From the IMG/VR virus record IMGVR_UViG_3300028573_000017, positions 4,217 to 68,216 of that record: a stretch of DNA of 64,000 nt; one strand, given 5' to 3'. Source of the DNA: a virus. Every line of letters begins with the position of its first letter. Positions within the stretch are counted from its first letter, which is position 1. Below are positions 19,040 through 59,717 of this stretch, in pieces. The notes under the pieces were generated by a model, which saw only the letters and a list, made by a program, of their open reading frames with translations, searched no databases and was not told where the DNA came from. The translations under genes and the position numbers were made by a program.

Positions 19040-19345
19040 TCACTTCACGAAATGGCCGGTGACGCGGACGCCGCGGACGATCACGGTGATGTCGCCGGAC
19101 GGCTTGGCGAGCGACTGGATGCGAGCGGCGCCGAAGGTGGTCGGCTTGGCCAGCACGGCATCGCATATCGCCTGGGCGATGGCGATTGGCTGGGTGAGCT
19201 TCGGCGATGCGTTGAGGACGTTAGCGATCGCCGCCGCCGTCGGCAGGAAGCCGCAAATCTTCACGGCATCGGCTTGGACGGTTCCGGCTGAGTTACAGCC
19301 GGCAAGCATAACGACGGGAGCCAGAGCGAGAAGAGCGAGACGCAT
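19040..19345 (-). CDS. Lipoprotein (possible spanin component)
   Basis: Lipobox LAGC; additional Cys pair. Confidence 0.7.
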   Translation of the reverse strand: MRLALLALAPVVMLAGCNSAGTVQADAVKICGFLPTAAAIANVLNASPKLTQPIAIAQAICDAVLAKPTTFGAARIQSLAKPSGDITVIVRGVRVTGHFVK

Positions 19346-32878: not shown

Positions 32879-33331
32879 TCAGGACATCCTTCGCGGCTGT
32901 TCGATCACCATGATCGCTGCCTCGGCACCGTGGATCGTGATCGTCTCTTTTACGTGGAACCCAAGGAAATAGGCAAAATCCATGGCCGTCCGGTCTGCTT
33001 TTAACACAATCGTCGCCAGATGGCGTTTCGTGCGGAGCAGTTCGTTGAGGTGGCGGAGCGCGGTCCGCGCAATCGCTATCGGGTGCGCCGCGCTGTCCTC
33101 GGTTGCCGCCAGCCACACCGATCCGTCGCTCGAGGCCAGCGGCCCGGTGACGCCCGCGATCGCCACGACCTTGCCGTCGATGACCAGCGCGCGGCTGAAG
33201 GACGACTCGTCGTAGGTGGCGCGAAGATCGCGATGCGCGTTGACCTTCATGGCGGCGAGGAGATCGCGGTATTCCGTGCGCAGCCGGCGCGCCACCTTGC
33301 CGCAATGGTGCGCCTGCCCTTCGACGATCAT
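32879..33331 (-). CDS. T7 gp13-like / GNAT-fold virion assembly protein
   Basis: DG.VVAIAG..GSVWL...FLGF; follows the nozzle gene. Confidence 0.65.
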   Translation of the reverse strand: MIVEGQAHHCGKVARRLRTEYRDLLAAMKVNAHRDLRATYDESSFSRALVIDGKVVAIAGVTGPLASSDGSVWLAATEDSAAHPIAIARTALRHLNELLRTKRHLATIVLKADRTAMDFAYFLGFHVKETITIHGAEAAIMVIEQPRRMS

Positions 33332-37428: not shown

Positions 37429-38208
37429 ATGGATACCGTGACGGCGCGCACGTGGCGTATCTATCGGATCACGTGCTCGGTCAATGGCAAGCGATACATT
37501 GGTCTCACGCGCGACACCGTTCGTCAGCGGTGGTCGAACCACGTGTGCAAAGCGATGTCTGTTCACGAGACGCCGCGAATACCGCTTCACAGGGCTGTTA
37601 GAAAATACGGCCGCAGCTGCTTCGTCGTAGACACGATCTGCGAGGTTTCCACTCTTGCCGAAGCCGGCGAGGCTGAGCGTCGTCTGATTGAGCAAGAGCA
37701 CACTCTTGTCCCGTCTGGCTACAACGTCGCTGCTGGCGGGATGGGCACTCCCGGCGTGCGCCGCCCGCACACCGCAGAGACGAAGGCGAAGATCGCCGAC
37801 GGCAATAGAGGACGTGTCGCCTCTCTTGAGACTCGCGAAAGGCAAAGCGCGTCTCGGCGCGGGAAACGACCCACACCGGAAACGTTGGCCAAACAGGCTG
37901 CCTCCCGAACAGGCCGCAAGCACAGCGCCGCTTGGCGCACGGCAATCGCCGACGGGCACCGAGGGCGACACTTCCCGGCGCGGAGCATAGCCCTGCTCAA
38001 AAGCTCGCTTATGTCTTCGACCGGGACCGCATCCGGCAGCCGCGGCATCACCGCGGAGGGACGGCGCTGGACCGCCCGCATTGGCATCAATGGTGTGCGC
38101 GTTCACCTTGGTGTCTTCGACACCATCGAAGAAGCATCGGCCGCCTATCGCGCTGCCGTCCGGAGGCGCATCGATGAACTGAGCGCCCACTGCGCATCTC
38201 CCGCCTAG
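37429..38208 (+). CDS. Free-standing GIY-YIG homing endonuclease with NUMOD3 repeats and AP2 domain
   Basis: RIYRIT..NGKRYIGLT; GYN..GG; HTAETKAKI repeats; W.ARI..NG..HLG.F.T.EEA..AY. Confidence 0.88.
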   Translation: MDTVTARTWRIYRITCSVNGKRYIGLTRDTVRQRWSNHVCKAMSVHETPRIPLHRAVRKYGRSCFVVDTICEVSTLAEAGEAERRLIEQEHTLVPSGYNVAAGGMGTPGVRRPHTAETKAKIADGNRGRVASLETRERQSASRRGKRPTPETLAKQAASRTGRKHSAAWRTAIADGHRGRHFPARSIALLKSSLMSSTGTASGSRGITAEGRRWTARIGINGVRVHLGVFDTIEEASAAYRAAVRRRIDELSAHCASPA

Positions 38209-39101
38209 AACGCGGAACCGCCGGCAAGCGGCATCTGGTCCCATCCGTAGCCGTACACGCCGTCACCGCCATCCCAGCCGCCGCCACCAACCGACCATCG
38301 GCCGGCGGAACCGCCGCTGCGCCGCGTCTGCATCCAGTCGACCGCGATGTCGCTGCTGAAAACGCCCTCGTTGCCGTCCACGAGGCGCGCTTCCTGCACC
38401 TTTTGCTTGACGATGAGCAATTGCTCGTCGCGTATCCGCATCCCAAGCTTCGTGTCCTTGCGCGTCCATATCGGACCGGCGATCTCGCTGGCGAGGTAGG
38501 CGACGAAGGCGGCCCGGAAGAGCGGATCCCAGACGCTCGGGTAGAGCATGATCGCAGTGTAGACGCAGGTGGCAAACCGGACGTTGGTGCAGATCACCGT
38601 CCGCCCCTGCGGGCTGATGCCCTGCACCTCCCACGAGATTGACCCGCCCGGTACCGGATAGTTGAAATCGGTCTCGACGCTGAACTTCGCGGGCCGGATG
38701 CGCTGGCCGAGCGCCACCTGGCCGATGCCGGTGAGGAGTGGCGTCTGCGGTATCTGGATGTTGCCGGCGGGAACGAGCGACGCCTGATTGGCGAGGTTCC
38801 ACGGCAGGAAGCGCACCTTGGCGCAGTCCTCCGGGTAGGCGTACTCGTAGATGAACCATGGATTGGGCACGACGGTGCCAACGCCCGCCGTGTTGCCGCT
38901 GGCGTCGGCGAGCAGGGTGAGCGGCGCGGTCTTGCGCGCGAAGTTCCAGTGAGCGGCGCGGAGCAACTGCATCAGGCAATTGCGGTAGGCGCGGACAATG
39001 ATACGGCCTTCGTCGGACCCGTCCTCGATGTCGCCGAGCGTGATCGGCCACATGATGGCGTCGAGCGCCTGGTTGCCGATATCGGACGGAAGGTTGACCA
39101 T
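38205..39101 (-). CDS. Tail tubular protein A / adaptor paralogue 3
   Basis: DIGNQAL; LR..HWNFARK; YEYAYP.DC; WDPLF..A. Confidence 0.8.
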   Translation of the reverse strand: MVNLPSDIGNQALDAIMWPITLGDIEDGSDEGRIIVRAYRNCLMQLLRAAHWNFARKTAPLTLLADASGNTAGVGTVVPNPWFIYEYAYPEDCAKVRFLPWNLANQASLVPAGNIQIPQTPLLTGIGQVALGQRIRPAKFSVETDFNYPVPGGSISWEVQGISPQGRTVICTNVRFATCVYTAIMLYPSVWDPLFRAAFVAYLASEIAGPIWTRKDTKLGMRIRDEQLLIVKQKVQEARLVDGNEGVFSSDIAVDWMQTRRSGGSAGRWSVGGGGWDGGDGVYGYGWDQMPLAGGSAF

Positions 39102-39718
39102 CAGCCCTGCTCCGTCATCGCCTGCACGGTTTCACCCTGGCCCTCGACCGCCTGCATCTTGGCGGTCTCTAGGTTGGCCAGCCCCGGCGCGAGCCGCTCG
39201 CCGAGCGCTTGCGTCAGCGCCTCGATGAAGCCGACGTCCATGGTCGCGGGGTCGGTGACGCGCCCGATGTAGACCACCAGAGCGTTCGGCACGTTGCAGA
39301 GAATGACGCGCTGCGCCGGGTTCAAGTAGTTGTCGTTGTCGATCGAGAAGATGTTGTCCTGCGGATCGACGTTCGGGAAGAAGAGCGGCGTCGGCTTGAC
39401 CGCGCGCACCTTCAGGCAGGAGTCCGGATAGGCGTACTCGAACAGCCAGTTCACCGGCGGATTGACCGTCGGGTCCCACGGATTGACGCCGGGGATGTAG
39501 CTGTCGGGCGCGCTTTTCAGCAGCGTGAGAACGGCGTTCCGCTGGGCAAAGCCCGGGTTCATCTTCCGCAGGAGCTCGTCGCGAGTTTGCCCGTAAATGT
39601 TGAGGGCCAATTGCGCGGCCGCGGAGCCGTCGTAGAGGCTCGCCACCTCCTGCCGCCAGCCGATACGGACCAACGAGGCATTCACAATATCGGCGGCCGT
39701 GGTGCTGCTGCTTGGCAT
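39101..39718 (-). CDS. Tail tubular protein A / adaptor paralogue 2
   Basis: DIVNASL..IG; FEYAYPDSCL; D..F.EAL...L. Confidence 0.8.
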   Translation of the reverse strand: MPSSSTTAADIVNASLVRIGWRQEVASLYDGSAAAQLALNIYGQTRDELLRKMNPGFAQRNAVLTLLKSAPDSYIPGVNPWDPTVNPPVNWLFEYAYPDSCLKVRAVKPTPLFFPNVDPQDNIFSIDNDNYLNPAQRVILCNVPNALVVYIGRVTDPATMDVGFIEALTQALGERLAPGLANLETAKMQAVEGQGETVQAMTEQG

Positions 39719-39731
39719 TCAGGCCGCCTCG

Positions 39732-40298
39732 TCAGTTCCGCCTCTGCGCCCCGATCTGCGTAAATGTCCCGCCCGACTCTAGCATCGATTGGGCAAGATC
39801 GGGCTTGCCGGCAAGGGCAAGCGAAAGAGCGCTCGCCAGCGTTCTTACCACGGCCTCCCGGAACAAACTATTCCAGGTGTTTTCGTTGGGGTTGTTGTTG
39901 TAGACGCACTGCGCCGGCGAGAGGTTGGTGCGGATGACACGCGCCTGCGATCCGGCGACGATCGCGTTGGCCTCGATCCAGTTGATCGGGATCGGATCGT
40001 TCAGGTCGATGCCCGACGTCGGCATGACCTCCCAGACCTGAATTCCGTCCGCGGGGTAGATGTACTCGTAGGCCCACGGGTAGGGCGCCGGGTTGCCCGT
40101 AGGGTTGAGCACGGCGGTGCTGCGGGCGAAGTCCCACTCGAACTCCCGCCCGACAGTGGCAACGGTCGGCCCATACAGAAAAGACGCCGCAATGCCGGCC
40201 GGCGAGGTGTCAAACGTCGGGAACACCCCGGTCACGGCGGGCTGATTATCGCCGATGAGCTGGATCGCCTGATTGACGATATCCGCCGAGGTGACCAT
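39732..40298 (-). CDS. Tail tubular protein A / adaptor paralogue 1
   Basis: DIVNQAI..IG; WDFAR; W.YEY.YP.D; W..LFREA...LA. Confidence 0.8.
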   Translation of the reverse strand: MVTSADIVNQAIQLIGDNQPAVTGVFPTFDTSPAGIAASFLYGPTVATVGREFEWDFARSTAVLNPTGNPAPYPWAYEYIYPADGIQVWEVMPTSGIDLNDPIPINWIEANAIVAGSQARVIRTNLSPAQCVYNNNPNENTWNSLFREAVVRTLASALSLALAGKPDLAQSMLESGGTFTQIGAQRRN

Positions 40299-40307
40299 GC
40301 GGATTCT

Positions 40308-42059
40308 CTACGGGCTGTTGAACTCGGTGACGATCACCAGGCCGGCGCTGCCGGCGCCCCCGGCGGCCGTGCCACCGCCATTAAATGATATGCCGCCGTT
40401 TCCACCCGCGCCAAACCCTTGTCCTGCGGCGCCGGCCGTTGATGCAACGACACTCCTGTTTGCTGGTGCGCCGCCGAAAGGACCGGCTCCCCCTGCGCCA
40501 ACCTTCGCAATGATGTTGGTGGCAGCCGCCTGCCACCCGTCACCCCCGGCATTGCCGACTGTCGTTACATCCCCTGTCCCAGCAACGCCACCAGCGCCGA
40601 AAGCCCCAAGATTCGATCCGTTGGCCCCGGAGCCGGATGCCCCGCCTTTGCCAATGCACAAAGCCCCAAGCGACGTGTCGCCGCCAGCCGCGCCTGCGTT
40701 ATTACCAGCCGACCCGCCAGTGCCCGCCGCCCCTATGGTGACGGCCTTAGACGCTCCTATGTCAGACGCCGACACCCTTTTAATTGACAGACTGCCGCCG
40801 CCTCCACCACCAGCCCCCACTGCGCTGCCAGCGGCGGCGTTTGCCGCGCCACCGCCTCCGCCACCGCCACCAACGCACTGAACGATCGCATAGAGCATCT
40901 TGGCGTTCGGCGTGTAGGTGCCGGACGCGGTGAATTTCTGAATCGTGACGCTGCCGATCGTGCCGCTGGCCGTGATCGCGCCCGTCGAGAACGTCAGGCC
41001 CGATCCAAGGTTCGCCAGCACCGTCGTGCCGCTGACCGTCAGGCCGTTGCCGAGCGTGTACGACTGCCAGTCGGTGCCGTCCGACACGAGCAGGTTATTG
41101 GCGGACCCGGACGAGGTGAGGTGCGTGCCGCCCTTCGCCGTCGTGATCGCCGTGCCGCTCCACACACCGCTCGCGACCGTGCCCGTGGCCGTGATGTTCG
41201 CCTGCACCGCCGCCGGCAGCGTGCTCGAGATGGACGGTGCGCCGGCGCCGCTGGTGATCAGCACGCCGTTGTTGGCCGTCGCCAGCCCCGCCACCGTCGC
41301 TGCCGATCCCGGGTAATAGGCGAGCTGGTTGGTCGTGCCGGCCGTGACCGTGCCGGAGCCGCCGCCCGTCGTGCAAGGGCCGCCCGCATCGACGAAGTTG
41401 CCGGAGCTGATCGAGACACAATCGCCGTTGGTGAGCGACCCGGTGGACGTGGCAAAGGCGGTGGTCGTGCCTGTCCGCGTGCCGACCGCGATTGCGTTGG
41501 TCCCATTGCCGATAAGCGGCGCGTTGGAAGTGAAGCTGAGTGCGCCCGTCCCGCCGAGTGTCACCGGGACCGTCGTCAGTGAGATGACGCCGCTGGTGAT
41601 GACCAGCGGGGACGCCGCGCTGAGCGTCAGGTTCTGGGGGACGCCATTGACGAGAAACTGCAGCGGCAGAGGTGTCGCTCCGCCGGCCGCGCCGTAAGAG
41701 AGCAGGCCGCCTCCCTGGGCGTTCGGTGACAGGCAGAGATAGTGGTAGCCGGTCGAATTCGTGGTCGGTGCATCGTAGTCGCAGATGTTCTCGCCGTTCG
41801 GGCCAGTCCCGGCATTGGCGTAGGGCGCCGTGCCGGTACCGCGTACCACCGACAGGATCTCGCTGAGGCCAAGGCCGACCGCGCCGCCGCCTGCCGGTCC
41901 GCTGTCCTGCACGACCGGCTGCTGCGAGCCTTGCCCGACGTACATCGGCGCATGGCCTGGGGTCGTCGGCCCGCCCTGCAGGATGACCGTCTGCGCCATC
42001 GCCGCAGTCGAAAGAGCCATCGCGGCGAGGAAGGAAAGGATGGAACGACCGAACCGCAT
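40308..42059 (-). CDS. Tail fibre-like protein with signal peptide and C-terminal glycine-rich domain
   Basis: MRFGRSILSFLAAMALSTAAMA-Q; V..GGTG repeats; FTASGTYTP..CVGGGGGGG. Confidence 0.75.
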   Translation of the reverse strand: MRFGRSILSFLAAMALSTAAMAQTVILQGGPTTPGHAPMYVGQGSQQPVVQDSGPAGGGAVGLGLSEILSVVRGTGTAPYANAGTGPNGENICDYDAPTTNSTGYHYLCLSPNAQGGGLLSYGAAGGATPLPLQFLVNGVPQNLTLSAASPLVITSGVISLTTVPVTLGGTGALSFTSNAPLIGNGTNAIAVGTRTGTTTAFATSTGSLTNGDCVSISSGNFVDAGGPCTTGGGSGTVTAGTTNQLAYYPGSAATVAGLATANNGVLITSGAGAPSISSTLPAAVQANITATGTVASGVWSGTAITTAKGGTHLTSSGSANNLLVSDGTDWQSYTLGNGLTVSGTTVLANLGSGLTFSTGAITASGTIGSVTIQKFTASGTYTPNAKMLYAIVQCVGGGGGGGGAANAAAGSAVGAGGGGGGSLSIKRVSASDIGASKAVTIGAAGTGGSAGNNAGAAGGDTSLGALCIGKGGASGSGANGSNLGAFGAGGVAGTGDVTTVGNAGGDGWQAAATNIIAKVGAGGAGPFGGAPANRSVVASTAGAAGQGFGAGGNGGISFNGGGTAAGGAGSAGLVIVTEFNSP

Positions 42060-42107
42060 GGCGACCTCGCTAGGCGTTGAACCGTATAGTGGCGGACGCA
42101 GGCGAGG

Positions 42108-42464
42108 CTAGTAGATGCCGATCATCTTGCCAACGCCGCCCTCTGGCTTGTCGGCTGGTTTAACGTCCTCGTCGTCACCGCCAAGGATGCCCATGTCCTC
42201 GATCTGGGCCTCGATGCGATAGCACTTACCGTCCGGCCCGTCGTTGCACGATACCGAGGTCACCCGGGCCAGACCCTGCAGCATGAAGGTACCGCCTACC
42301 GTCGCATCCGTCGGATCGATGCCGAGCTTCTCGATCTCGTCGTCCGTCAGGCAGATGCGAAGCCCGTAGGGATAATCCGGCTTGTTCGGCATGGCGATAG
42401 GCATCGGCGCATCGAGCTTCGACTCGTCGTCGAGTTCCATCGACTGCATGGGGATGAGGGCCAT
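42108..42464 (-). CDS. Capsid staple protein (epsilon15 gp10-like)
   Basis: YPYGLRI.L..EIEKLG..A.VTSVS..QI.DM. Confidence 0.75.
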   Translation of the reverse strand: MALIPMQSMELDDESKLDAPMPIAMPNKPDYPYGLRICLTDDEIEKLGIDPTDATVGGTFMLQGLARVTSVSCNDGPDGKCYRIEAQIEDMGILGGDDEDVKPADKPEGGVGKMIGIY

Positions 42465-42475
42465 CGATGCGCTCC

Positions 42476-42889
42476 CTAGACCGGTGGCGTGGGGCCAGCG
42501 GCACCCGGCGCCTGCGGCTCGCCAGCAGCACCCGGGACTGCGGCCGGACCGGAACCGGCGGCACCAAGCTCGGCGTCGTTCGCCGTGTTCATGGTCCCGA
42601 TTTCCTTCTCGTGCCGGGCTGCCATCTGGCGCATCGCCTCGCGGTGGTTGCCATGGAGGTCGCGGCGCTCGGTCTCATGCCGCTTGTGCATGTCCGCGCG
42701 GGCCTTGGCGTGCCGACCGTGGACGCTTTCCTTGCCCTCGGCCTTGGGGTCCTTCTCCTCGGCCTTCTTTTCGGCAGCGGGCTCTTTCTTCTCCTCGGCC
42801 GCGCCCTCGGGCTTCTTCTCCTCCGGCTTCGACTCGGATTTCTTGCCGCCGTACATGCGCTCGCGTCTGGTGCTCTTTTCGTCGGCCAT
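42476..42889 (-). CDS. Charged low-complexity protein
   Basis: Lys/Glu-rich; H..ERRD.H..H repeats. Confidence 0.65.
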   Translation of the reverse strand: MADEKSTRRERMYGGKKSESKPEEKKPEGAAEEKKEPAAEKKAEEKDPKAEGKESVHGRHAKARADMHKRHETERRDLHGNHREAMRQMAARHEKEIGTMNTANDAELGAAGSGPAAVPGAAGEPQAPGAAGPTPPV

Positions 42890-42893
42890 CGGA

Positions 42894-43062
42894 TTAACCC
42901 TTCGCCATCTTGGCTGCTGATCTCGGGTAGAGGCGAGCGCGGCGATCCCCGAATGCTCGCTTCGGGTCCGGCTCAGTAACGCCCTTGCTGCGGAAGTCGT
43001 CTCCCTTGCGGGAGTCCGGCGCCGCCTTCTGGATCCACTTCTTCTTCGGCTTGTCGGCCATC
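42894..43062 (-). CDS. Small basic protein
   Basis: MADKPKKKWIQKA...RRARLYP; start approximate. Confidence 0.5.
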
Positions 43063-43098
43063 GGCTTCGTCCTCGATGCAGCGTCGGCGAGCGTCAGA

Positions 43099-43290
43099 CT
43101 AGCCATTGCCCCGGCTGCGCTTGTGCTTGTACATCCGCTCCGCCCGGGTGCCGACGCGCTCCGGCAGCTTGCCCGGCTTGTCGTCGGCGATCATCTTCTT
43201 CGCAGTCTCTTGGGAGACGCCACCGGCGCCTCCCTTCTTCGATCCGGCGCTGTAGAACAGCGCCCGCTGCTTTTCCGAACGGAACGGCAC
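43099..43290 (-). CDS. Small basic protein
   Basis: MPFRSEKQRA....KLPERV. Confidence 0.7.
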   Translation of the reverse strand: MPFRSEKQRALFYSAGSKKGGAGGVSQETAKKMIADDKPGKLPERVGTRAERMYKHKRSRGNG

Positions 43291-44609
43291 TATAGCTCGG
43301 CCGATGCCTGGATGGATCCGGTCGGCGAACCGGTGCCCGCATCCCAGAACCAGCCAGCCGTACCCGCCGCCGGCCCGCCCGCCGAGGACGCGCAGTCAAT
43401 GAGCACGCCCGTCGTGGACGGACCAAACCCGGTGACGGTCGCCGAGGTGGTGAGGCCCGTGCAGGCAAAGCCGGAGGTCGACGCGGCCTGCGCGCTGGCA
43501 AGAAAGCCGGTCGCGTAGGTCATCGTCGGAGCGACGCGCATGTTCTGCGGGAACTTCACAAAGCAGTTCGAGATGCTCGTCGTCGACGAAATGCACTCGC
43601 CTTCGACGATCTTCGAGGTCGAGCTTTCAGTGATCTGGTAGAAATAGCGCAACTGAAGCATGGTCTCGACGCCCTGAAGGCGTCGGTCGAATGCGGCGCA
43701 CTGCACCGTGCCGGCCGTGGTGCCGCACACCTGTCCGACCGTGGTCGAGACGCTGGCAGCGAGCGACGAATTGCGCACCAGTTGGAGGCCGGCGAGCGCG
43801 ATATAGTCGTTCGTGCCGGCGGTGCCGACCGGGGTCCAGCAGATCGCTACGCCGATCTCGGTCGCGGTTGTCGGGATGGTCGCGATCGCTGCATAACGGC
43901 CATTGACGGTGCTGATCGGAATGACAGCCGCCGTCGCGTTGGCCTGCCCGGTCCAGCCGGAACCGCCGCCACCGCCGGCATTGATGCCGAAGGCCATCTT
44001 GGCGATGCCTTCGTCGACGCCGGTGCCAGTGACGATGTAGGCAGTGATGTTCGAGCTCGCCGCCGAGAAGTTGGCGCCGGCTACCGCATGGAAGTCGAAT
44101 TCGGCGGTCTGGCCCTGGAACTGGTATGAGTTGGCCGTTTCCACCGCCTGTGCCATGCATACCGGAATGACGCCAGTCTGTCCGGAGGTGCGGGCCATTT
44201 TGAAGGCATAGGGATAGGCGCTCGCCGGAAGGTCTGCGGCGGTCGAGTCGCGCGAGACGGTCATCGCCGTCGCGGTGCCAGACCAGTAGGCAAAGCGGTC
44301 CGGGCCACCATAGGTCGTGGTCGTGGTGACGCTGGAGCCGGTGGTGCCGCGCTGCCAAAGATTGGTGGCTGCGTCGCCGCCGATGAGCGCATTGCCCTTG
44401 GTCGGGAGCGACCCGTTGTAGCCGGCGAGCGTGAGCGCGCTGGCGTAGACGTTGCCGGCCTGCGCATTGCCGCCAACGACATCCTGGAAGAGATCGGTCG
44501 GCCCGACGATCGAGACCTGCGGAGGCGCGGCATTTGCCGGAACGATGGGCGCGAGGATGAGGGCAATGGCTGCCGCAAGGCTCGCGAGACGGTTCAGTTT
44601 CATGGTCAT
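43290..44609 (-). CDS. Fibre/decoration protein with signal peptide and carbohydrate-binding-like domain
   Basis: Signal peptide ending ANA-A; N.L.GGD...WQRGT..DRF; E....RYFY; MR.APT. Confidence 0.7.
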   Translation of the reverse strand: MTMKLNRLASLAAAIALILAPIVPANAAPPQVSIVGPTDLFQDVVGGNAQAGNVYASALTLAGYNGSLPTKGNALIGGDAATNLWQRGTTGSSVTTTTTYGGPDRFAYWSGTATAMTVSRDSTAADLPASAYPYAFKMARTSGQTGVIPVCMAQAVETANSYQFQGQTAEFDFHAVAGANFSAASSNITAYIVTGTGVDEGIAKMAFGINAGGGGGSGWTGQANATAAVIPISTVNGRYAAIATIPTTATEIGVAICWTPVGTAGTNDYIALAGLQLVRNSSLAASVSTTVGQVCGTTAGTVQCAAFDRRLQGVETMLQLRYFYQITESSTSKIVEGECISSTTSISNCFVKFPQNMRVAPTMTYATGFLASAQAASTSGFACTGLTTSATVTGFGPSTTGVLIDCASSAGGPAAGTAGWFWDAGTGSPTGSIQASAEL

Positions 44610-44635
44610 TTCTCCTCGAATTGTCCCGGCCGCGA

Positions 44636-44968
44636 TCAGCCGATGATGCCGTAATTGTACGTCCCCGTATCACCCGCGACGCCGCCGACGGTAAAGCCGG
44701 TGCCGGGCGTGATCGTCAGCACGTTTGGGGCCGTCGGACTTATCGTCCCGCCGACCGTTTTAAGGGTGAAGATGATGAGCGAGCCAGCTTTGACGCGGGC
44801 GTCTGCGACGGTGACCGGGGTGGCGCCGTTCAGCACGAAGGTGCCGCCGCCAACCGGCAGGGACGTGACTTCTGGACCGCCGTTGTCGATCGGCATGACG
44901 CCGGGCTTCGCCGCGGTGATGGCGGGCAGGCCGCCGGTGAGGATCGTCTGGCCTGGCTGCACGGTCAT
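44636..44968 (-). CDS. Small beta-rich virion (head fibre-like) protein
   Basis: GTFVLNGATPVTV..ITPGTGFTV..DT.TYNY. Confidence 0.6.
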   Translation of the reverse strand: MTVQPGQTILTGGLPAITAAKPGVMPIDNGGPEVTSLPVGGGTFVLNGATPVTVADARVKAGSLIIFTLKTVGGTISPTAPNVLTITPGTGFTVGGVAGDTGTYNYGIIG

Positions 44969-45060
44969 CGGTCAGTTCCTTTCAAAGCGAGCGTGGCACC
45001 TATACCACGGATATTCCTGTTGCGGGAGAGCGCCCGAACATCAAGCGGAGCGCAATCCGC

Positions 45061-46170
45061 CTAGCATGCATTGATGTCGATGCCCGTACTGCCTGGACTC
45101 AGATAGTAGGGGCTGGCAAGAAAGCGCACGGTGTTGCCGCAGACCATTCCATTGTAATTACCGGACTGCATGGCAATGCCACCGGTGTTCGTGTACGGGG
45201 ACGGCATATTGCTTTTGAAGCTGTTGCCGGAAATCGTAAAATCGGCAACGCCATAAATGCTTATGCCGTAGCCGGGGGATCCGATGATCGTGAACACATT
45301 ATCGTTGAAATTCGCCTGTTGCAGCCAGGTTATATTCGCGGGGTGCTGCGTCACGCTGATGCCGTAGCCGGCAGCTATTCCGATCTGGTTGCCAATCACT
45401 TGGAAATTGAAAAAGTTCCATGGGTTGGTGGCGGGCGGTGTCAGGGCTACTGCGGCGGCGACGGTCCCCTCGATTGAGTTGCCGTCGATTACGATGTCGG
45501 AGCCTCCCGGAACAGCCGCGAAGACACCGCGATAGCCGTAGGCCGCGCCTAGAATTTTGTTGTTGGTGACGCGAAGCCCGTCGCCGCTTTCCTGGTAAAT
45601 GGCCGTGTAGTTTCCGGAGCAACAAAAAAGGCTGTCGATGATACGATTGTCGCCGGCATCGTAGTTGTAATGGTTGGCGATATGGATGCCCTCGTGCGTG
45701 ACAGACTGTGCCCAGAGATCATCGACGATCCAATATGCCGCCGCGTCCATCTTGATGCAGTCATAGAGGCTGACACAGCGCATGTGCAGGAATGAACTGC
45801 GATAATTGTTGTTTCCGGGAGCGGTCACATAAATGGCTGCCCCGGCGGTCTGAGTGTGCCCGCTCGCCGGCTGAATAGTGAAGTCGCGAAAGGTATCGCT
45901 GTAAACAGTGTTGACGTAGAATCCGTTCTGCGTCGTCGAACCCAAGGTGACGATCGCGCTCTGATTCTCGTTTCCGTAGATGGCAAGACCGCAGGTAATG
46001 TTGACCGCCGCCCCGAGCGCGTAGGTCTGCGCGCCGAGGTGGACGAAGTGGTCGCTGGCGCAAGCGGTGTTGACCGCAGCCTGCATTTCGACGTCGGTGT
46101 AGGGACTGGCGACCTCAGTCGCGAGGGCCGGTGAGGCGAATAGAAGAAGGGCTGCGAGAAGTCTCTTCAT
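45061..46170 (-). CDS. Parallel beta-helix (pectate lyase-like) tailspike/depolymerase with signal peptide
   Basis: MKRLLAALLLFASPALA-T; MQAAVN; repeated I.GN/N.I..GI turns. Confidence 0.8.
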   Translation of the reverse strand: MKRLLAALLLFASPALATEVASPYTDVEMQAAVNTACASDHFVHLGAQTYALGAAVNITCGLAIYGNENQSAIVTLGSTTQNGFYVNTVYSDTFRDFTIQPASGHTQTAGAAIYVTAPGNNNYRSSFLHMRCVSLYDCIKMDAAAYWIVDDLWAQSVTHEGIHIANHYNYDAGDNRIIDSLFCCSGNYTAIYQESGDGLRVTNNKILGAAYGYRGVFAAVPGGSDIVIDGNSIEGTVAAAVALTPPATNPWNFFNFQVIGNQIGIAAGYGISVTQHPANITWLQQANFNDNVFTIIGSPGYGISIYGVADFTISGNSFKSNMPSPYTNTGGIAMQSGNYNGMVCGNTVRFLASPYYLSPGSTGIDINAC

Positions 46171-46925
46171 CTTACGTACTCCGTGATGATTACGATTCCC
46201 GCCGTGCCCACGCCCCCCGAAACACTGGTCGCCGAGTTAATTCCGAACCCCCCGCTTCCTCCCGAGCAAAACCCTGACGCAGCATTTCCGACGACTGTAC
46301 CCGTAGAAAACGAAACGACACCCCTCCCACCACCCCCATAGGCACAACTTCCTCCCGCGCCGCTACCACTTCCCGCAGTTATGATCGTTCCTCCGAACCC
46401 GGTGAACCCAGGCGCCCCGGTTGCGGCAACATCGCCGGTCCCTGCGACGCCGCCCAGCCCACCAGTGCCGGCGAGGACCGTAGCCGCATTGGCGAAGCCT
46501 CCGCCCGAACCGCCTTTGCCTATGCAAAGCGTGCCGACAGACGTGTCACCCCCGCCATTACCTGGATTGGCCCCGGCCGTTCCGGCGGTCCCCGCCGCCC
46601 CTATGGTGACGGTTTGCGAAGCCCCGACCGTAGCGGCAGAAACAGTTACGCGACTATAGCTTCCCGCTCCTCCTCCGCCCGCTCCGTTAGTATCCGCAAC
46701 GGCCCCTAGAACGCCTCCGCCTGCGCCGCCCCCACCGACACATTCGATAACCGCTGAAAACATCCCAGCGGTAGGAGTGTACGTTCCACTGCCAGTGAAC
46801 ACCTGCTTGACTACGGCGCTAATCGTGGAGGAACTCGCTCCACCGCTGGTCGTGATGATGACCGCCTTGGCGGGGAGAGCCGCGAAGGCAAGCGCGAGAA
46901 GTCCGAAGAGGATGCGCTTTATCAC
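46167..46925 (-). CDS. Glycine-rich fibre-domain protein with signal peptide
   Basis: MIKRILFGLLALAFAALPAKA-V; FTGSGTYTP..CVGGGG. Confidence 0.75.
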   Translation of the reverse strand: MIKRILFGLLALAFAALPAKAVIITTSGGASSSTISAVVKQVFTGSGTYTPTAGMFSAVIECVGGGGAGGGVLGAVADTNGAGGGGAGSYSRVTVSAATVGASQTVTIGAAGTAGTAGANPGNGGGDTSVGTLCIGKGGSGGGFANAATVLAGTGGLGGVAGTGDVAATGAPGFTGFGGTIITAGSGSGAGGSCAYGGGGRGVVSFSTGTVVGNAASGFCSGGSGGFGINSATSVSGGVGTAGIVIITEYVR

Positions 46926-48715
46926 TTGGTCTGCCCACTAAACGCTGCGGTTGCGGAGTCCGTCTTGGTGAATGGCGTGGTCGATGCACTGAAGGCTACC
47001 GAGATGCCCGTCGCCATGACCAGCGGCGGCATGAAGTTCAACCCACAGGTCCCGTTTATGGCTACGTAGCAGAACGCCACCGGCGTCACCGCCCCTGCTG
47101 CCGGTACGGTCGTAGAGTTGAACACTTCGAGAAACCCGGCAACGGTCGTCGCCTGAACCTCAACGCCGTAAAGATTGCCCGCCGACGCCTTGAGGACATG
47201 TCCCGTTTCGAGTGCAGAGGAGACGACCGGCGCCATGCCCGCAGCAGCGCCCGCCGTCGGCGCGATCTCGACGCCATTGGTGGTCACATCCGTCGTCTGG
47301 TCGATGCCGACCTTGCCAACAATCTGCGAACCAGCCCCCAGTGCAACGGTCGCGCCGGTACCGCCGTCGAGAGACACGGAAAGCTGGTTCGATGCGTTGA
47401 CGTTCGCCCCGCGAGCATTGCCGGCCGCGTCACGGATGATCTGGTAGGTGCCAAGCGTCGTGCCCGGCACACGGTCCCAGGTCGTGCCGTTATAGGCGTA
47501 GTTGCGGCCGGTGGTAGAGACCGCGCCGGTCGGTGTATTTGATGCACCGTCCGCCAGTGCCGATCCGGTGTTGATCGCGACAGCCGTGTTGTTGTCGGCC
47601 GCGTACAGGTTGACGAGCAGGCCGCCGCGGGACCCGACCTGCAAGCCGCCCTGCTGGCCGTTGGTGAGCGTCTCCAGCGTGGAGTTGTACTGCGCACCGA
47701 GCATCAAGCCCTTGGTCGCGGTCGCCGTATTCGGCGTGATCGGCGTCTGCTCCGCTACCAGGTCGACCATCGACCCCGAGGCAAGCGAACCGGACGCATA
47801 CGCCCCGGAGGCCGCGGTCACCGCGCTCTGCGTGGCGAACGTACCAGTGCCGACCACGGTCGCGTTTAGATTGGATGCCGTGGCCTGCGACACCTGCACC
47901 GGGGTCATCGACGCGATGCCCTGGATGGTCGCTACGCCGGTGGCCGCCGATCCGGCCGTCCCACCACCAGCCACGATCCACGGCGACGTGCTTTGCGTGA
48001 CGGCGACCGTGCCGGAGACCGGGAACGTGCCGCCGGTGCCCGTCACCAGCATCGCCGTGCCGTTCGCGCCGGTGTTGGCGACGCTCACCTGAAGCGGCGC
48101 CGCTGCGGTGCCGACCTCGGTGCCGGACGCATTCCGGAGATTCGTGAAGATCGCCCGGTTGGCGGTCATCTGGAACCAGCCGCCCTGACCGTTCGTCAGC
48201 GCATTGGCTGTCGGCGTGGTCTGGTAGAAGCCTCCCGACGGCGTGTAGGGCGTGGCGCCGGCGACAAATGCCGCCTCGTCCACCGCGCTCGTGCCCGTGC
48301 TTCCCCCACCGCCGCCGGTGTTTCCGGCCGGGTTGGCGATCACGGCGACCTTCTGGCCGGGGATCACGCCGAAGGTGACGGGAACGCCCTGCTGAAGAAG
48401 ATAGTTCGAGGTGGTCGCGGTCGGGGTGGCGCCGAACGAAATCGAGCAGCCTTCGTCGCAGATCAGCGAAACCGCGTGGGTCTTGGAGTTGAAGGCCGCC
48501 GAGGCGGCGGACGCGCCGCTGACCGCTATCGCCTGATCGGCGACGGACGGCTGCGGCGGTATCTGCGGCTGGGTCGAACCGACCAGCGACAGGCCATTCT
48601 GGAACTCGCTGATGTAGAGCGTGGCGGCGTCGGCGGCTTCCGTCGCGATGACGATGCCGGCGACGGCGGCAAGCGCCGCGGCCGCCCATCTCCGCAGGCT
48701 TCCCGGGCGGCCCAT
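46922..48715 (-). CDS. Beta-strand repeat fibre-like protein with signal peptide
   Basis: RRWAAAALAAVAGIVIATEAADA-ATLYISEF; Thr/Gly/Ala repeats. Confidence 0.7.
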   Translation of the reverse strand: MGRPGSLRRWAAAALAAVAGIVIATEAADAATLYISEFQNGLSLVGSTQPQIPPQPSVADQAIAVSGASAASAAFNSKTHAVSLICDEGCSISFGATPTATTSNYLLQQGVPVTFGVIPGQKVAVIANPAGNTGGGGGSTGTSAVDEAAFVAGATPYTPSGGFYQTTPTANALTNGQGGWFQMTANRAIFTNLRNASGTEVGTAAAPLQVSVANTGANGTAMLVTGTGGTFPVSGTVAVTQSTSPWIVAGGGTAGSAATGVATIQGIASMTPVQVSQATASNLNATVVGTGTFATQSAVTAASGAYASGSLASGSMVDLVAEQTPITPNTATATKGLMLGAQYNSTLETLTNGQQGGLQVGSRGGLLVNLYAADNNTAVAINTGSALADGASNTPTGAVSTTGRNYAYNGTTWDRVPGTTLGTYQIIRDAAGNARGANVNASNQLSVSLDGGTGATVALGAGSQIVGKVGIDQTTDVTTNGVEIAPTAGAAAGMAPVVSSALETGHVLKASAGNLYGVEVQATTVAGFLEVFNSTTVPAAGAVTPVAFCYVAINGTCGLNFMPPLVMATGISVAFSASTTPFTKTDSATAAFSGQTK

Positions 48716-50198: not shown

Positions 50199-51242
50199 TT
50201 ACGAGACCAGGGTCTCGGTGTTGAGGAGCTGGTCGACGATCTTGATCGGGATGCCACGCCAGGCCGTGATCGGCTTGCCGGCGTAGTCGTTGAGCGTGAG
50301 CAGGACGTTGCGGTCGCGCATCGCCTGGATGTCCATCCACTGCCGGACCGTGCGGTTGCAGTAGAAGATGCCGCGGACAGTCACGTCTTCGCGCGGCGCG
50401 TCGGTGCGTGTGATGCCGCTGGTCGGCGGCGTGAACTTCGGGAACAGCATAACCTGGTGGGCCATGATGGTGAACAGGTCCGGCGGGGTCGGGCCCGCGA
50501 GGCCGGCCGTGGTCGTGTCGAGGTTGGCGACGCGCGAGGCATACCGCCAATCCATCGGGCAGAGGCCGATCTGCTGGCGGAACCACGAGGTATACGCCTC
50601 GAAGCGGTTGCCGAGGTTGTCGTAGCCGGGAACGATGTCGCCCTTGTCCTCCATGGCGAGGCCCGCCTTGGAGCCGCGCGGGTAGAGGCCGAAGATGGTC
50701 TTGGTGCCCCAGCCGACCAGCCAGAGCGAGGCGTTGTTGTTGCCGAGGCCGCCACCGTTGACGACGTTGGCCGCATTCTGGGCGGTGGCCGTGTTGACCG
50801 TGTTGTAGAAGGCCGAGAGGCCCATGAATTCCGACGGCGTGGCGACCGTGTTACCGTAGAACATGGTCTGCGCGATCGTCTGGCTCATGCCCTCGAGGAA
50901 GGCCACGTCTTCCGACTCGCGGAAGCCCATGAGGTCGCCGGAGTGCTCGGCGAGAGCGCGGTCGACCTGGCTGTAGTCCTCCAGCATGCCGAGGCCGACG
51001 CGCGCCTTGGCGGTGGTCGACTTGCTGTAGGGAACGCCCTGATTGTACTGGCGCCAGGTGCCGGCCGGGATCGAGGTGCGGAAGATGAACTCGTGGCCGG
51101 TCATCTCGTTTGCCTCGACCATCGGCATGTCTTCCGCATAGTCGTTCGACTGCGAAAGCATCTCAGCGATGTCGCCGATGTTCCCGTCGGGGTCCATGCG
51201 GGTCGCAACATCCAAGATAGTGGGCCAGCTACCGGTCGCCAT
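50199..51242 (-). CDS. Major capsid protein (Bbp17/epsilon15 gp7-like)
   Basis: I.EMLSQ.N...DMP..E.N; RT.IP...WR..NQGV; FYGN..P.EF.GL; GIPI..VDQLLNTE. Confidence 0.92.
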   Translation of the reverse strand: MATGSWPTILDVATRMDPDGNIGDIAEMLSQSNDYAEDMPMVEANEMTGHEFIFRTSIPAGTWRQYNQGVPYSKSTTAKARVGLGMLEDYSQVDRALAEHSGDLMGFRESEDVAFLEGMSQTIAQTMFYGNTVATPSEFMGLSAFYNTVNTATAQNAANVVNGGGLGNNNASLWLVGWGTKTIFGLYPRGSKAGLAMEDKGDIVPGYDNLGNRFEAYTSWFRQQIGLCPMDWRYASRVANLDTTTAGLAGPTPPDLFTIMAHQVMLFPKFTPPTSGITRTDAPREDVTVRGIFYCNRTVRQWMDIQAMRDRNVLLTLNDYAGKPITAWRGIPIKIVDQLLNTETLVS

Positions 51243-56963: not shown

Positions 56964-57226
56964 TTGTCGCGTTCCTTCGCGGTGACGCCGGGCGAGCGCT
57001 TCGGCTGCATCATCCACGCGAATGCGCCGGCGCTCATTGCCTTCTCGACTTCTTCCGTTGTTACCCACCCAAGAAGCGAGGAGACCACGACCCGACTTTC
57101 CGATGCACGTCGGCGCGCGATTTCATAGTGGTCGTGACACGCCAGTCCGCTCCACGGGGAGCCCTCACAGACAAAATCGACGACCGCCCGCTTGTCGCAC
57201 CACGAGCACTTCGGGTTCATTTTCAC
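56960..57226 (-). CDS. Zn-finger-like protein
   Basis: CSWC...CHDH. Confidence 0.5.
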   Translation of the reverse strand: MKMNPKCSWCDKRAVVDFVCEGSPWSGLACHDHYEIARRRASESRVVVSSLLGWVTTEEVEKAMSAGAFAWMMQPKRSPGVTAKERDK

Positions 57227-59441: not shown

Positions 59442-59717
59442 TCACCACAGGAGGCTGAGGCCGGCAGCGACACCGGTCGCGATGGAAGCTAGCACGAGAA
59501 CGACGGCGACGGTACCGGAGGGGTCAAGGACCTCGCGAAGCGGGTCGGGGATGCTCTGGATCGTAGCGCTGAGGTAGGCCAGCCCGATGGTGCCGAGCGC
59601 TAGGATAACAGCGAGATGGCTTTCCCACATGAGCCCGGCCGCGATGACGCCGGCGCAGTAGAGCGCGCTGTTCAGGATGACGGCGACGAGAAGGAACGGG
59701 CGGTCCGAATTCATCAT
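59442..59717 (-). CDS. Three-TM membrane protein
   Basis: Hydrophobic helices; overlaps the TerL stop. Confidence 0.6.
   Translation of the reverse strand: MMNSDRPFLLVAVILNSALYCAGVIAAGLMWESHLAVILALGTIGLAYLSATIQSIPDPLREVLDPSGTVAVVLVLASIATGVAAGLSLLW

What the first reader, a model, noticed from the sequence alone, without database searches (positions are those of the whole stretch)
40308..48715. Five fibre/spike/decoration genes all carry Sec signal peptides and paired cysteines: possible periplasmic route for virion appendages
Seen in the sequence: five genes in the structural operon, between the cement and adaptor genes, start with n/h/c signal peptides ending in A-x-A. They are 40308 (MRFGRSILSFLAAMALSTAAMA|Q), 43290 (MKLNRLASLAAAIALILAPIVPANA|A), 45061 (MKRLLAALLLFASPALA|T), 46167 (MIKRILFGLLALAFAALPAKA|V) and 46922 (RRWAAAALAAVAGIVIATEAADA|A). 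They also contain closely spaced Cys pairs (NICDYD..YLCL, DCVS..GPC, VCGTTAGTVQC, CVSLYDC, ICDEGC, FCYVAINGTC). Established knowledge: tailed-phage fibres and spikes normally fold and assemble in the cytoplasm without signal peptides. Inference: these receptor-binding or depolymerase parts are exported, fold oxidatively in the periplasm, and either join the virion at or after inner-membrane breach or act on the host surface.
Basis: partly seen in the sequence, partly recalled or inferred. Interest (0 to 1): 0.88.

Follow-up and report, generated by a model that had tools for sequence, protein, structure and literature searches.

The report
Phage fibre-like proteins carrying export signals
An uncultured short-tailed soil phage puts ordinary bacterial secretion signals and paired cysteines on five fibre-, lectin- and enzyme-like late proteins, so these parts very probably mature in the host periplasm rather than in the cytoplasm where tailed-phage particles are built; whether they then join the particle is not shown.

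Summary
Observation confirmed. The window is a complete 68-kb epsilon15/BPP-1-like podovirus contig. Five minus-strand late genes (40308-42059, 43290-44609, 45061-46170, 46167-46925, 46922-48715) start with n/h/c leaders ending in A-x-A.

The leaders look real and cleaved:
- 117 of 120 relatives of the 439-aa protein and 138 of 150 cluster representatives of the 583-aa protein's N-domain pass my leader rule.
- In the second family, Gln is at +1 in 148 of 150.
- The N-domain of the 597-aa protein also exists without a leader. In 67 of 74 classed viral loci the initiator Met sits directly before the residue predicted as +1 after cleavage.
- Leader-bearing forms have a cysteine pair in 6 of 7 loci, against 7 of 67 leaderless forms.
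- All five mature proteins have even cysteine counts.

What they are: three clade-wide modules (a conserved part just behind the leader plus a fibre/lectin body) and two swapped-in cargo genes (a Gly-rich fibre-tip domain and a beta-helix).

Export is well supported (about 0.85). Docking onto virions at lysis is my preferred fate (about 0.4) but is untested; a non-virion periplasmic or surface role is nearly as likely.

Seven literature searches found no report for tailed phages. This scan has noted the same phenomenon before on other DNA.

The parts
46922..48715 (-). g597: 30-aa Sec leader (48626-48715), about 100-aa 'ATLYISEF' beta-sandwich domain (48311-48625), then a fibre-like body
   Evidence: ORF and start. 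Domain model pLDDT 87.8. Relatives with and without a leader. No Pfam or PHROG family.
46167..46925 (-). g252: 21-aa leader (46863-46925, GTG start overlapping the g597 stop by 4 nt) followed directly by a Gly-rich fibre-tip domain
   Evidence: PF21722 scores 26.9 bits against a cut-off of 24.3; phrog_863 E 2.7e-30. Junction. Relatives of the domain in 43 viral loci show no leader.
45061..46170 (-). g369: 17-aa leader (46120-46170) followed directly by a right-handed beta-helix; low G+C cargo
   Evidence: PF13229 scores 26.1 bits against a cut-off of 25.9. G+C is 0.564 against 0.64 for the window. No relative in IMG/VR by pattern scan. One leaderless relative in Shewanella phage vB_Sb_QDWS.
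44636..44968 (-). g110: conserved small protein without a leader here (K1-lyase_C-like); it belongs to the same conserved block
   Evidence: PF24146 E 3.2e-7. Conserved in L002, L006 and L010. Relatives in L063 and L068 have leader-like N-termini.
43290..44609 (-). g439: 27-aa leader (44529-44609), a conserved N-terminal segment, a CBM4/22-like beta-sandwich (about residues 65-280) and a second beta domain; 8 Cys
   Evidence: Relatives. Alignment A1. Model pLDDT 79. Fold matches of Z 14.4, 13.5 and 12.6.
40308..42059 (-). g583: 22-aa leader (41994-42059), conserved N-domain of about 140 aa with an invariant Cys pair (41580-41993), a variable stalk and a C-terminal Gly-rich domain
   Evidence: phrog_863 E 1.1e-29; PF21722 scores 18.7 bits, below the cut-off. 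N-domain family of 691 clusters. N-termini. C93 and C109 invariant in A3.
42108..42464 (-). Context: cement protein (epsilon15 gp10-like)
   Evidence: PF21628 E 1.1e-11
50199..51242 (-). Context: major capsid protein (GP7 type)
   Evidence: PF20911 E 9e-105
38205..40298 (-). Context: three adaptor paralogues directly downstream of g583
   Evidence: phrog_394, E 8e-20 to 4e-26, three times
33328..37329 (-). Context: 1333-aa nozzle, about twice the length of its family profile
   Evidence: phrog_376 E 1.9e-124, protein residues 1-1314 on profile positions 2-711 of 712

Best explanation
The five genes are late, operon-embedded phage genes. Their products begin with genuine signal-peptidase-I type Sec leaders. 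Each step below is marked shown or inferred.

1. Inferred from sequence and comparison, confidence about 0.85: the precursors are exported across the host inner membrane, the leader is cut after A-x-A, and the paired cysteines are oxidised in the periplasm.

2. Shown by comparison: three of the five are clade-wide modules. Each has a conserved part directly behind the leader, followed by a fibre- or lectin-like body.
- g597: the 'ATLYISEF' domain.
- g439: an N-terminal segment plus a CBM-like sandwich.
- g583: a 140-aa N-domain in front of bodies of 208 to 1599 aa.
- g252 and g369 are exchangeable cargo, a fibre-tip Gly-rich domain and a beta-helix, that also carry leaders.

3. Inferred, confidence about 0.4: the exported proteins work outside the cell. 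At least the three with a conserved N-part dock onto finished particles only when holin action or lysis merges cytoplasm and periplasm. They would then serve as disulfide-stabilised host-recognition or adhesion appendages.
For: Leaders are conserved in kind but not in sequence.
- g439 family: 117 of 120 best relatives pass my rule. The 3 misses show the same pattern by eye, one of them behind an upstream-extended start.
- g583 N-domain: 21 of 21 IMG/VR relatives have a leader by eye, and 138 of 150 cluster representatives pass my rule.
- In that family Gln is at +1 in 148 of 150. Position -3 is Ala in 128 of 148, and -1 is Ala/Gly/Ser in 145 of 148.
- Column entropy is 2.41 bits in the leader against 1.18 in the next 21 residues.

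Natural experiment in the g597 N-domain.
- Of 80 viral loci, 74 could be classed.
- 67 are leaderless stand-alone proteins whose Met sits directly before the predicted +1 Ala.
- 7 carry leaders. In the protein database, 23 of 26 short relatives are leaderless.
- Every form with a C-terminal body has a leader: 4 of 4 loci and all 18 listed proteins of 359-1038 aa, the window's own included.

Cysteines.
- Leader-bearing forms have a pair in 6 of 7 loci, leaderless forms in 7 of 67; Fisher p = 6e-5, not corrected for phylogeny.
- In the protein set the figures are 21 of 21 against 0 of 23.
- Mature Cys counts in the window are 6, 8, 8, 4 and 4, or 1.4 per 100 aa. The 16 leaderless structural proteins have 0.29 per 100 aa.
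- The g439 family has an even count in 119 of 120. C93 and C109 of g583 are invariant in 50 sequences.

Operon. Junctions run from -8 to +92 nt. Promoter-like and terminator-like sites are no more frequent than in shuffles.

Evidence for a virion or fibre nature.
- PHROG tail-fibre families match g583 and g252.
- 43 of 43 viral loci with relatives of the Gly-rich domain encode leaderless proteins (3 run off the locus end); most are long, with fibre-like N-termini by eye.
- The g439 sandwich matches distal domains of CBA120 TSP4 (Z 13.5, rmsd 2.5, 152 aligned) and of the Kp7 fibre (Z 12.6) as well as CBM4 (Z 14.4).
- The leaderless 'ATLYISEF' gene sits beside capsid, cement, adaptor or nozzle genes wherever my queries could place it.
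- I found no leaderless fibre or spike gene elsewhere in the 68-kb record.
Against: - No trained signal-peptide predictor and no experiment were available. Cleavage, export and disulfides are inferred.
- No result here shows that any of the five is in the particle.
- g252 and g369 have no docking part behind the leader.
- Six or more leader-bearing genes per phage is many for one podovirus tail.
- 9 of 150 g583-family members have a lipobox-like motif inside the leader. One relative's neighbouring gene has a twin-arginine-like leader (L072). Both would fit envelope-resident proteins better than virion parts.
- One leader-bearing 'ATLYISEF' form has a single Cys, and 7 leaderless ones have a pair.
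- The 1333-aa nozzle with large insertions could itself be the receptor-binding part.
- Bdellovibrio MAT fibres show that leader plus conserved 130-aa domain plus fibre can mean display on a cell surface.
- Later checks of similar findings elsewhere in this scan priced the virion-docking reading at about 10 in 100.
Confidence: 0.4

Rival explanations
1. The proteins are exported but never virion-bound. They act in the periplasm or on the envelope of the infected cell, or as free lectins and enzymes after lysis. Possible roles are trimming or masking the phage's own polysaccharide receptor so that progeny are not trapped on debris, excluding other phages, or being displayed on the cell surface like Bdellovibrio MAT fibres.
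For: - All known leader-bearing proteins of tailed phages that I can recall are non-virion: spanins, T5 Llp, lambda Lom and Bor, Sec and SAR endolysins (recalled, from no call).
- g252 and g369 are a leader followed directly by a domain, with no docking part.
- 9 of 150 g583-family leaders are lipobox-like.
- A neighbouring gene in L072 has a Tat-like leader.
- g439 is conserved at 50-77% identity and a constant length of about 430 aa, unlike typical receptor-binding proteins.
- The MAT architecture is a precedent (passages read).
- Porphyromonas phages carry leader proteins with Gln at +1 that were read as envelope modifiers (passages read).
Against: - The 'ATLYISEF' domain is leaderless in 67 of 74 classed loci, so its job cannot depend on being in the periplasm before lysis.
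- The genes are translationally coupled inside the head-tail operon, not set apart as morons.
- A conserved N-part in front of bodies of 208-1599 aa is the pattern of parts that dock on a conserved phage partner.
- ESM Atlas neighbours are all viral clusters.
- No other fibre gene was found in the genome.
Confidence: 0.35
2. The hydrophobic N-termini are not used for export. They remain as a structural element, or are removed by a phage protease, and the proteins assemble on the particle in the cytoplasm as in other tailed phages.
For: - Cytoplasmic assembly is the rule for tailed phages (established knowledge).
- Matrishin et al. 2023 suggest that predicted leaders on capsid proteins of Porphyromonas phages are removed by the prohead protease (passage read).
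Against: - A structural helix should be conserved in sequence. Here only the n/h/c character and the A-x-A site are kept.
- Leaderless orthologues begin exactly at +1.
- A Cys pair goes with the leader, and Cys counts are even.
- The leader is present on unrelated cargo of different G+C.
Confidence: 0.07
3. Artefact: wrong start codons or chance hydrophobic stretches in a G+C- and Ala-rich genome.
For: High-G+C genomes give many Ala/Leu-rich translations, and my rule also flags some spurious ORFs on the opposite strand.
Against: - Starts abut or overlap the upstream stops.
- Hundreds of homologues keep the feature at the same place.
- Enrichment is 5 of 10 against 2 of 57 genes.
Confidence: 0.02

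Closest known systems
Leaderless tail fibres of tailed phages with a C-terminal Gly-rich domain (Pfam PF21722; PHROG 863, 6202, 454, 12796)
   Same: The distal domain of g252 and g583 belongs to these families. 43 of 43 viral loci with relatives of it encode proteins without a leader, most of them long and fibre-like.
   Different: In this phage the domain sits behind a Sec leader. In g252 nothing lies between leader and domain.
Bdellovibrio bacteriovorus MAT fibres (Caulton et al. 2024, PMC10769870; passages read)
   Same: [quoted passage not shown] The g583 family has a leader, a conserved domain of about 140 aa and bodies of 208-1599 aa.
   Different: MATs are chromosomal genes of a predator and are displayed on its own surface. 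These genes sit in a phage head-tail operon. I could not test sequence homology of the N-domains because I held no MAT sequence.
Exported non-virion proteins of tailed phages: spanins, T5 Llp, lambda Lom and Bor, Sec-exported and SAR endolysins (recalled, from no call)
   Same: They are phage-encoded, leader-bearing, and act in the envelope.
   Different: None has a tail-fibre-like modular build or sits translationally coupled between capsid and adaptor genes. The leaders of the five proteins contain no Cys and so no lipobox.
Filamentous phage coat proteins pIII and pVIII (recalled)
   Same: They are virion proteins made with cleavable leaders and join the particle outside the cytoplasm.
   Different: Inoviruses assemble at the membrane by extrusion. 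This is an HK97-fold, DNA-packaging podovirus whose heads must form in the cytoplasm.
Leader-bearing genes of Porphyromonas gingivalis phages with Gln at +1 (Matrishin et al. 2023, PMC10367356; passages read)
   Same: They are phage genes of unknown function with SPase I leaders that expose an N-terminal Gln. The g583 family has Gln at +1 in 148 of 150.
   Different: That paper says nothing of fibres or tail parts in the passages I read, and reads the genes as modifiers of the host outer membrane. The host phylum also differs.
Late, spontaneous attachment of fibres and decoration proteins (T4 tail fibres, Hoc and Soc, lambda gpD; recalled)
   Same: These show that appendages can bind finished particles in vitro, which the docking step needs.
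   Different: Those proteins are made and attached in the cytoplasm.

Membership tests
Sec / signal peptidase I signal peptide | Positively charged n-region, hydrophobic h-region of about 8-15 residues, and a c-region with small residues at -3 and -1 | tested here: met
   All five meet it by reading. My rule flags 3 of the 5 in the automatic gene set. g597 was missed because the longest ORF start was used, and g252 was not flagged.
Sec / signal peptidase I signal peptide | The feature is kept across homologues while the leader sequence drifts | tested here: met
   117 of 120, 138 of 150 and 21 of 21 relatives keep it. Entropy is 2.41 against 1.18 bits. -3 is Ala in 128 of 148, and -1 is A/G/S in 145 of 148.
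Sec / signal peptidase I signal peptide | A positive call by a trained predictor (SignalP, DeepSig) | not tested
Sec / signal peptidase I signal peptide | Demonstrated cleavage and export | not testable with these tools
   Indirect only: leaderless orthologues start at the predicted +1 in 67 of 74 classed loci.
Lipoprotein (signal peptidase II) leader | A lipobox [LVI][ASTVI][GAS]C at the end of the h-region | tested here: not met
   There is no Cys in any of the five leaders. 9 of 150 g583-family relatives do have a lipobox-like motif.
Twin-arginine (Tat) leader | An S/T-R-R-x-F-L-K-like motif in the n-region (motif recalled) | tested here: not met
   Only g597 has an RR, and its relatives in L002 and L003 lack it. 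A Tat-like leader does occur on another gene in L072.
Gly_rich_2 (PF21722) fibre domain | Pfam score above the gathering cut-off of 24.3 bits | tested here: met
   g252 scores 26.9 bits. g583 scores 18.7 bits, below the cut-off, but matches phrog_863 at E 1.1e-29.
Right-handed beta-helix (PF13229) | Pfam score above the gathering cut-off of 25.9 bits | tested here: met
   g369 scores 26.1 bits, which is marginal. No solved relative by sequence.
Virion-attached receptor-binding protein of a podovirus | A conserved N-terminal particle-binding part with an exchangeable distal part | tested here: met
   g583 N-domain: 691 clusters, protein lengths 208-1599 aa, with the match starting within the first residues of the protein in nearly all 150 listed (latest start at residue 77). 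g597: one N-domain with several different bodies. g252 and g369 have no such part.
Virion-attached receptor-binding protein of a podovirus | Presence in the purified particle, or binding to the adaptor or nozzle | not testable with these tools
   No cultured relative: tblastn of g583 and g439 against 50,697 phage records found nothing.
CBM4/CBM22-like carbohydrate-binding beta-sandwich | Fold similarity over the whole module | tested here: met
   g439 residues 70-278 against 4bj0_A: Z 14.4, rmsd 3.0, 162 of 166 aligned. Sugar binding was not tested.
Bdellovibrio MAT fibre family | Sequence homology of the conserved domain behind the leader | not tested
   I held no MAT sequence. Only the architecture was compared.

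The most novel reading that the evidence does not exclude
In a large uncultured clade of 62-68 kb epsilon15-like podoviruses, probably of Hyphomicrobiales such as Bradyrhizobium, the host-recognition and adhesion gear is not built in the cytoplasm. Fibres, lectin modules and enzymes are sent through Sec, trimmed to a defined N-terminus and disulfide-bonded in the periplasm. They snap onto DNA-filled particles only when the holin opens the inner membrane. This would be a two-compartment assembly line, unknown for tailed phages. The 'ATLYISEF' adaptor domain shows both routes in sister phages, each giving the same mature N-terminus.
Probability: 0.35. Interest if true: 0.85.

Novelty: new variant of a known kind. 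Interest (0 to 1): 0.62.

Why it matters
Tailed-phage morphogenesis is taught as a cytoplasmic process. A whole clade whose fibre-like proteins must be exported would have four consequences.

- If the proteins dock on particles, it adds a second compartment and a timing problem: docking would depend on lysis.
- If they do not dock, it reveals a new class of phage-encoded, fibre-shaped envelope effectors.
- Either way it changes how receptor-binding proteins should be predicted in viromes. Filters that discard leader-bearing proteins as 'host-like' would miss them.
- It also changes how such proteins should be expressed for study. Disulfide-dependent folding needs periplasmic or oxidising expression.

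The leaderless and leader-bearing pairs of one domain give a ready-made experimental contrast.

Tried and rejected
- **Complex prediction**: I co-folded the g583 N-domain (residues 23-160, with alignment A3) with the three adaptor paralogues. The verdict was no answer (score 0.00, mark 0.32, controls not run). I use it neither for nor against binding.
- **Fold searches for the 'ATLYISEF' domain**: VIA-wide best Z was 5.4 (3rj2_X), within the noise range given by the tool. Foldseek against PDB gave nothing at E <= 0.001. BFVD gave only uncharacterised viral proteins of about 100 aa. No known fold or function was obtained.
- **Sequence searches of PDB**: g369, g597 and profiles A1 and A3 gave nothing meaningful.
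- **Isolated phages**: tblastn of g583 and g439 against the phage collection found no match. g597 gave a weak central-domain hit in Sphingomonas phage Scott. The 'ATLYISEF' domain gave one hit at E 0.3. So no cultured relative with virion proteomics was found.
- **g369**: no relative in IMG/VR by pattern scan.
- **g597 N-domain as a single query in IMG/VR**: only one locus. The alignment query A2 then gave 80.
- **Host assignment**: this rests on MAG binning only. Relatives lie on contigs binned as Bradyrhizobium (two; one of 64 kb), Hyphomicrobiales (one, 63 kb) and Rhizobiales (one), of which two are short fragments. The window's own phage lies in a bin labelled Salinisphaerales. I treat the host as probable, not shown.
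- **Tat export of g597**: considered because of its RR, and rejected because relatives lack it.
- **Lipoprotein reading for the five**: considered and rejected because the leaders contain no Cys.
- **ESM Atlas**: it gave only viral clusters without names, plus weak leads under 0.85 (lambda Stf, T4 gp9/10, Mtd_N, head fibre). I use these as leads only.
- **My first Cys tally** used too strict a motif and left many loci unclassed. It was replaced by the alignment-anchored tally.
- **Supplementary files** of the two papers were not opened. They may list which Porphyromonas phage genes carry leaders.
- **Literature**: seven searches found no report of Sec leaders on fibres of tailed phages. This covers the held library only.

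Full report
**Context**

The window is bases 4217-68216 of a 68,216-bp IMG/VR virus record rated complete. It is a podovirus of the epsilon15/BPP-1 type. All genes below are on the minus strand.

- T7-type portal, 57223-59058 (PF12236).
- Scaffold-like gene.
- GP7-type major capsid protein, 50199-51242 (PF20911, E 9e-105).
- gp10-like cement protein, 42108-42464.
- Three adaptor paralogues, 38205-40298 (phrog_394).
- A 1333-aa nozzle (phrog_376).
- Internal virion proteins and two giant ejection proteins.

The nearest isolated phages share only about 40% capsid identity. The 8.4-kb stretch has no near DNA match among 50,697 phage records. Close relatives are uncultured contigs of 62-68 kb. Some are binned in Bradyrhizobium, Hyphomicrobiales or Rhizobiales MAGs, which makes a diderm alphaproteobacterial host probable but not shown.

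**Observation**

- The gene at 46922 starts at ATG 48715, four bases after the upstream stop, and relatives start at the same place.
- Junctions in the stretch run from -8 to +92 nt.
- Promoter-like and terminator-like sites are no more frequent than in shuffles: 3 against 2.0, and 13 against 9.7. The five are therefore part of the late head-tail operon.
- Five of the ten genes in the stretch carry a leader, against 2 of 57 other genes called in the window (p = 5e-4).
- Only the 583-aa gene lies between cement and adaptors. The other four lie between the capsid genes and cement.

**Are the leaders real?**

No trained predictor was available, so I relied on comparison.

1. g439 family. 521 relatives passed E <= 0.001. 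Of the best 120, 117 pass my n/h/c plus A-x-A rule, and the 3 misses show the pattern by eye.

2. g583 N-domain (residues 1-160).
   - An exhaustive HMMER search found 691 clusters at 50% identity.
   - Of the 150 listed, 138 pass the rule. Most misses are proteins called from an upstream start.
   - 148 of 150 have Gln at +1. Ala is at -3 in 128 of 148, and Ala/Gly/Ser at -1 in 145 of 148.
   - Leader columns are far more variable than the next 21: 2.41 against 1.18 bits. Selection for export competence gives this signature; a structural helix would be conserved in sequence.

3. The N-domain of g597 offers a natural experiment.
   - Of 80 viral loci holding it, 74 could be classed.
   - 67 are stand-alone proteins of 61-108 aa without a leader. 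Their initiator Met sits directly before the Ala predicted as +1 of the leader-bearing forms.
   - 7 carry leaders. Both routes therefore give the same mature N-terminus.
   - Every form with a C-terminal body has a leader: 4 of 4 loci, and all 18 listed proteins of 359-1038 aa, the window's own included.

4. Cysteines follow the leader.
   - A close Cys pair or an alternative pair occurs in 6 of 7 leader-bearing loci and 7 of 67 leaderless loci. Fisher p = 6e-5, not corrected for relatedness.
   - In the protein set the figures are 21 of 21 against 0 of 23.
   - The five mature proteins have 6, 8, 8, 4 and 4 Cys, or 1.4 per 100 aa. Sixteen leaderless structural proteins have 0.29 per 100 aa.
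   - The g439 family has an even count in 119 of 120. C93 and C109 of g583 are invariant in 50 sequences.

Together these make export, cleavage at the A-x-A site and oxidative folding the reading I hold at about 0.85.

**What the proteins are**

- **g583.** Leader, a conserved N-domain of about 140 aa, a variable stalk and a Gly-rich C-terminal domain (phrog_863, E 1e-29). The same N-domain heads proteins of 208-1599 aa.
- **g252.** Leader plus the same kind of Gly-rich domain (PF21722, above the cut-off). In 43 other viral loci, relatives of this domain sit in proteins with no leader, mostly at the C-terminus of long ones.
- **g369.** Leader plus a beta-helix (PF13229, marginal), with G+C of 0.564. 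Its only phage relative found is a leaderless protein near the tail-fibre genes of a Shewanella phage.
- **g439.** A model with pLDDT 79 shows a CBM4/22-like sandwich. Matches are Z 14.4 to 4bj0, 13.5 to the distal part of CBA120 TSP4 and 12.6 to a Klebsiella phage fibre. A second beta domain follows.
- **g597.** The 'ATLYISEF' domain is a small beta-sandwich (pLDDT 87.8) with no informative solved match and only unnamed viral look-alikes. The central part of g597 recurs behind many other N-termini. Most have leaders, and about 25 of 120 do not.

**The clade**

- Relatives keep the conserved order: capsid, two small genes, the 'ATLYISEF' gene, a variable slot, the g110 gene, the g439-type gene, small basic genes, cement, the g583-type gene, adaptors.
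- The variable slot holds different cargo in different phages, much of it leader-bearing and of lower G+C. Examples are two ORFs in L002 and several in L003, one of them a leader plus a Gly-rich domain.
- In a minimal relative (L006) the 'ATLYISEF' gene is leaderless and the g439-type gene is cut down to a leader plus about 135 aa.
- Leaders thus recur on unrelated, recently acquired genes in this module, which argues that export is required for whatever these proteins do.

**Fate of the exported proteins**

For docking on the particle:
- The pattern of a conserved N-part with exchangeable bodies.
- Homology of the distal domains to true fibre domains.
- The leaderless 'ATLYISEF' orthologues sit among capsid, cement, adaptor or nozzle genes. 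Their function cannot depend on being in the periplasm before lysis.
- I found no other fibre or spike gene in the 68-kb record.

Against docking:
- There are no particle data.
- Two of the five have no docking part.
- 9 of 150 g583-family leaders look like lipoboxes.
- A neighbouring gene in L072 has a Tat-like leader.
- The oversized nozzle could be the receptor-binding part.
- Bdellovibrio MAT fibres show the same build on a cell surface.

I put docking at about 0.4 and a non-virion envelope or extracellular role at about 0.35.

**Literature and earlier notes**

- Seven full-text searches found no report of Sec leaders on fibres of tailed phages.
- I read passages of two papers:
  - Caulton et al. 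2024 (PMC10769870) on MAT fibres.
  - Matrishin et al. 2023 (PMC10367356), who note leader-bearing genes with Gln at +1 in Porphyromonas phages and read them as envelope modifiers.
- This scan has flagged the same phenomenon before in many other genomes. Two of those reports were checked later: the checks kept the observation and priced the virion-docking reading near 10 in 100.
- What this window adds is the leaderless versus leader-bearing contrast within one domain family, together with the cysteine pattern that goes with it.

**Limits**

- The leader rule is my own.
- The Fisher tests ignore phylogeny.
- ORF starts in loci are the first or nearest start codon.
- The host is inferred from binning.
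- One tool (look-up of encoding contigs) was closed.
- Supplements were not read.

Noticed in passing
L072:7203-8648: A low-G+C 482-aa ORF just upstream of the adaptor gene in a relative begins with a twin-arginine-like leader: KRRSF, then a hydrophobic stretch, then AQA. Tat export of folded proteins may therefore also be used in this module.
   Followed up: no
L063:2159-2566 and L068:3474-3851; window 44636-44968: The small K1-lyase_C-like protein (g110) has no leader in the window, but its relatives in two sister phages have leader-like N-termini. This is a second family with both forms.
   Followed up: partly
proteins P0293, P0298, P0317, P0321, P0327, P0334, P0339, P0359, P0370: 9 of 150 members of the g583 N-domain family have a lipobox-like motif inside the leader while keeping the downstream A-x-A|Q site. 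They could be lipoproteins or ordinary SPase I substrates.
   Followed up: partly
window 59714-62449 (-): The large terminase ORF is 911 aa, with a weak LAGLIDADG_3 match in its middle (E 5e-4, below the cut-off). This may be an intein or a homing-endonuclease insertion.
   Followed up: no
window 37429-38208 (+); L068:9301-9828; L078:10749-11312: A GIY-YIG homing endonuclease lies on the opposite strand between the third adaptor and the nozzle. Two relatives have unrelated low-G+C ORFs inserted among the adaptor genes, so this junction seems to be an insertion hotspot.
   Followed up: partly
window 33328-37329 (-): The nozzle is 1333 aa against a family profile of 712 positions. Insertions give weak CBM_5_12 and E1_FCCH-like matches. 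It may itself carry receptor-binding parts.
   Followed up: no
window 19040-19345 (-) and 4897-5298 (+): These are the only other leader-like N-termini among the called genes. One is a 101-aa protein with a lipobox (a likely outer-membrane spanin-type lipoprotein beside the membrane-protein cluster). The other is a 133-aa protein with a leader or signal-anchor.
   Followed up: no
L003:15184-15534 and 15519-15827: A relative carries two more small leader-bearing ORFs downstream of its fibre block. By recall, the first looks like an RlpA-type double-psi beta-barrel protein; this was not tested.
   Followed up: no
L082 (genome collection): A contig 100% identical to the window over the g439 gene is binned in a MAG labelled Salinisphaerales, while relatives are binned in Bradyrhizobium or Hyphomicrobiales MAGs. 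Binning of this phage contig is probably unreliable.
   Followed up: no
window 19452-20090 (-): A 212-aa protein with an IPT/TIG domain (PF01833, E 1e-10) and no leader lies between the giant ejection gene and the lysis-type cluster. Its role is unknown, and it could be a small virion or adhesion part.
   Followed up: no
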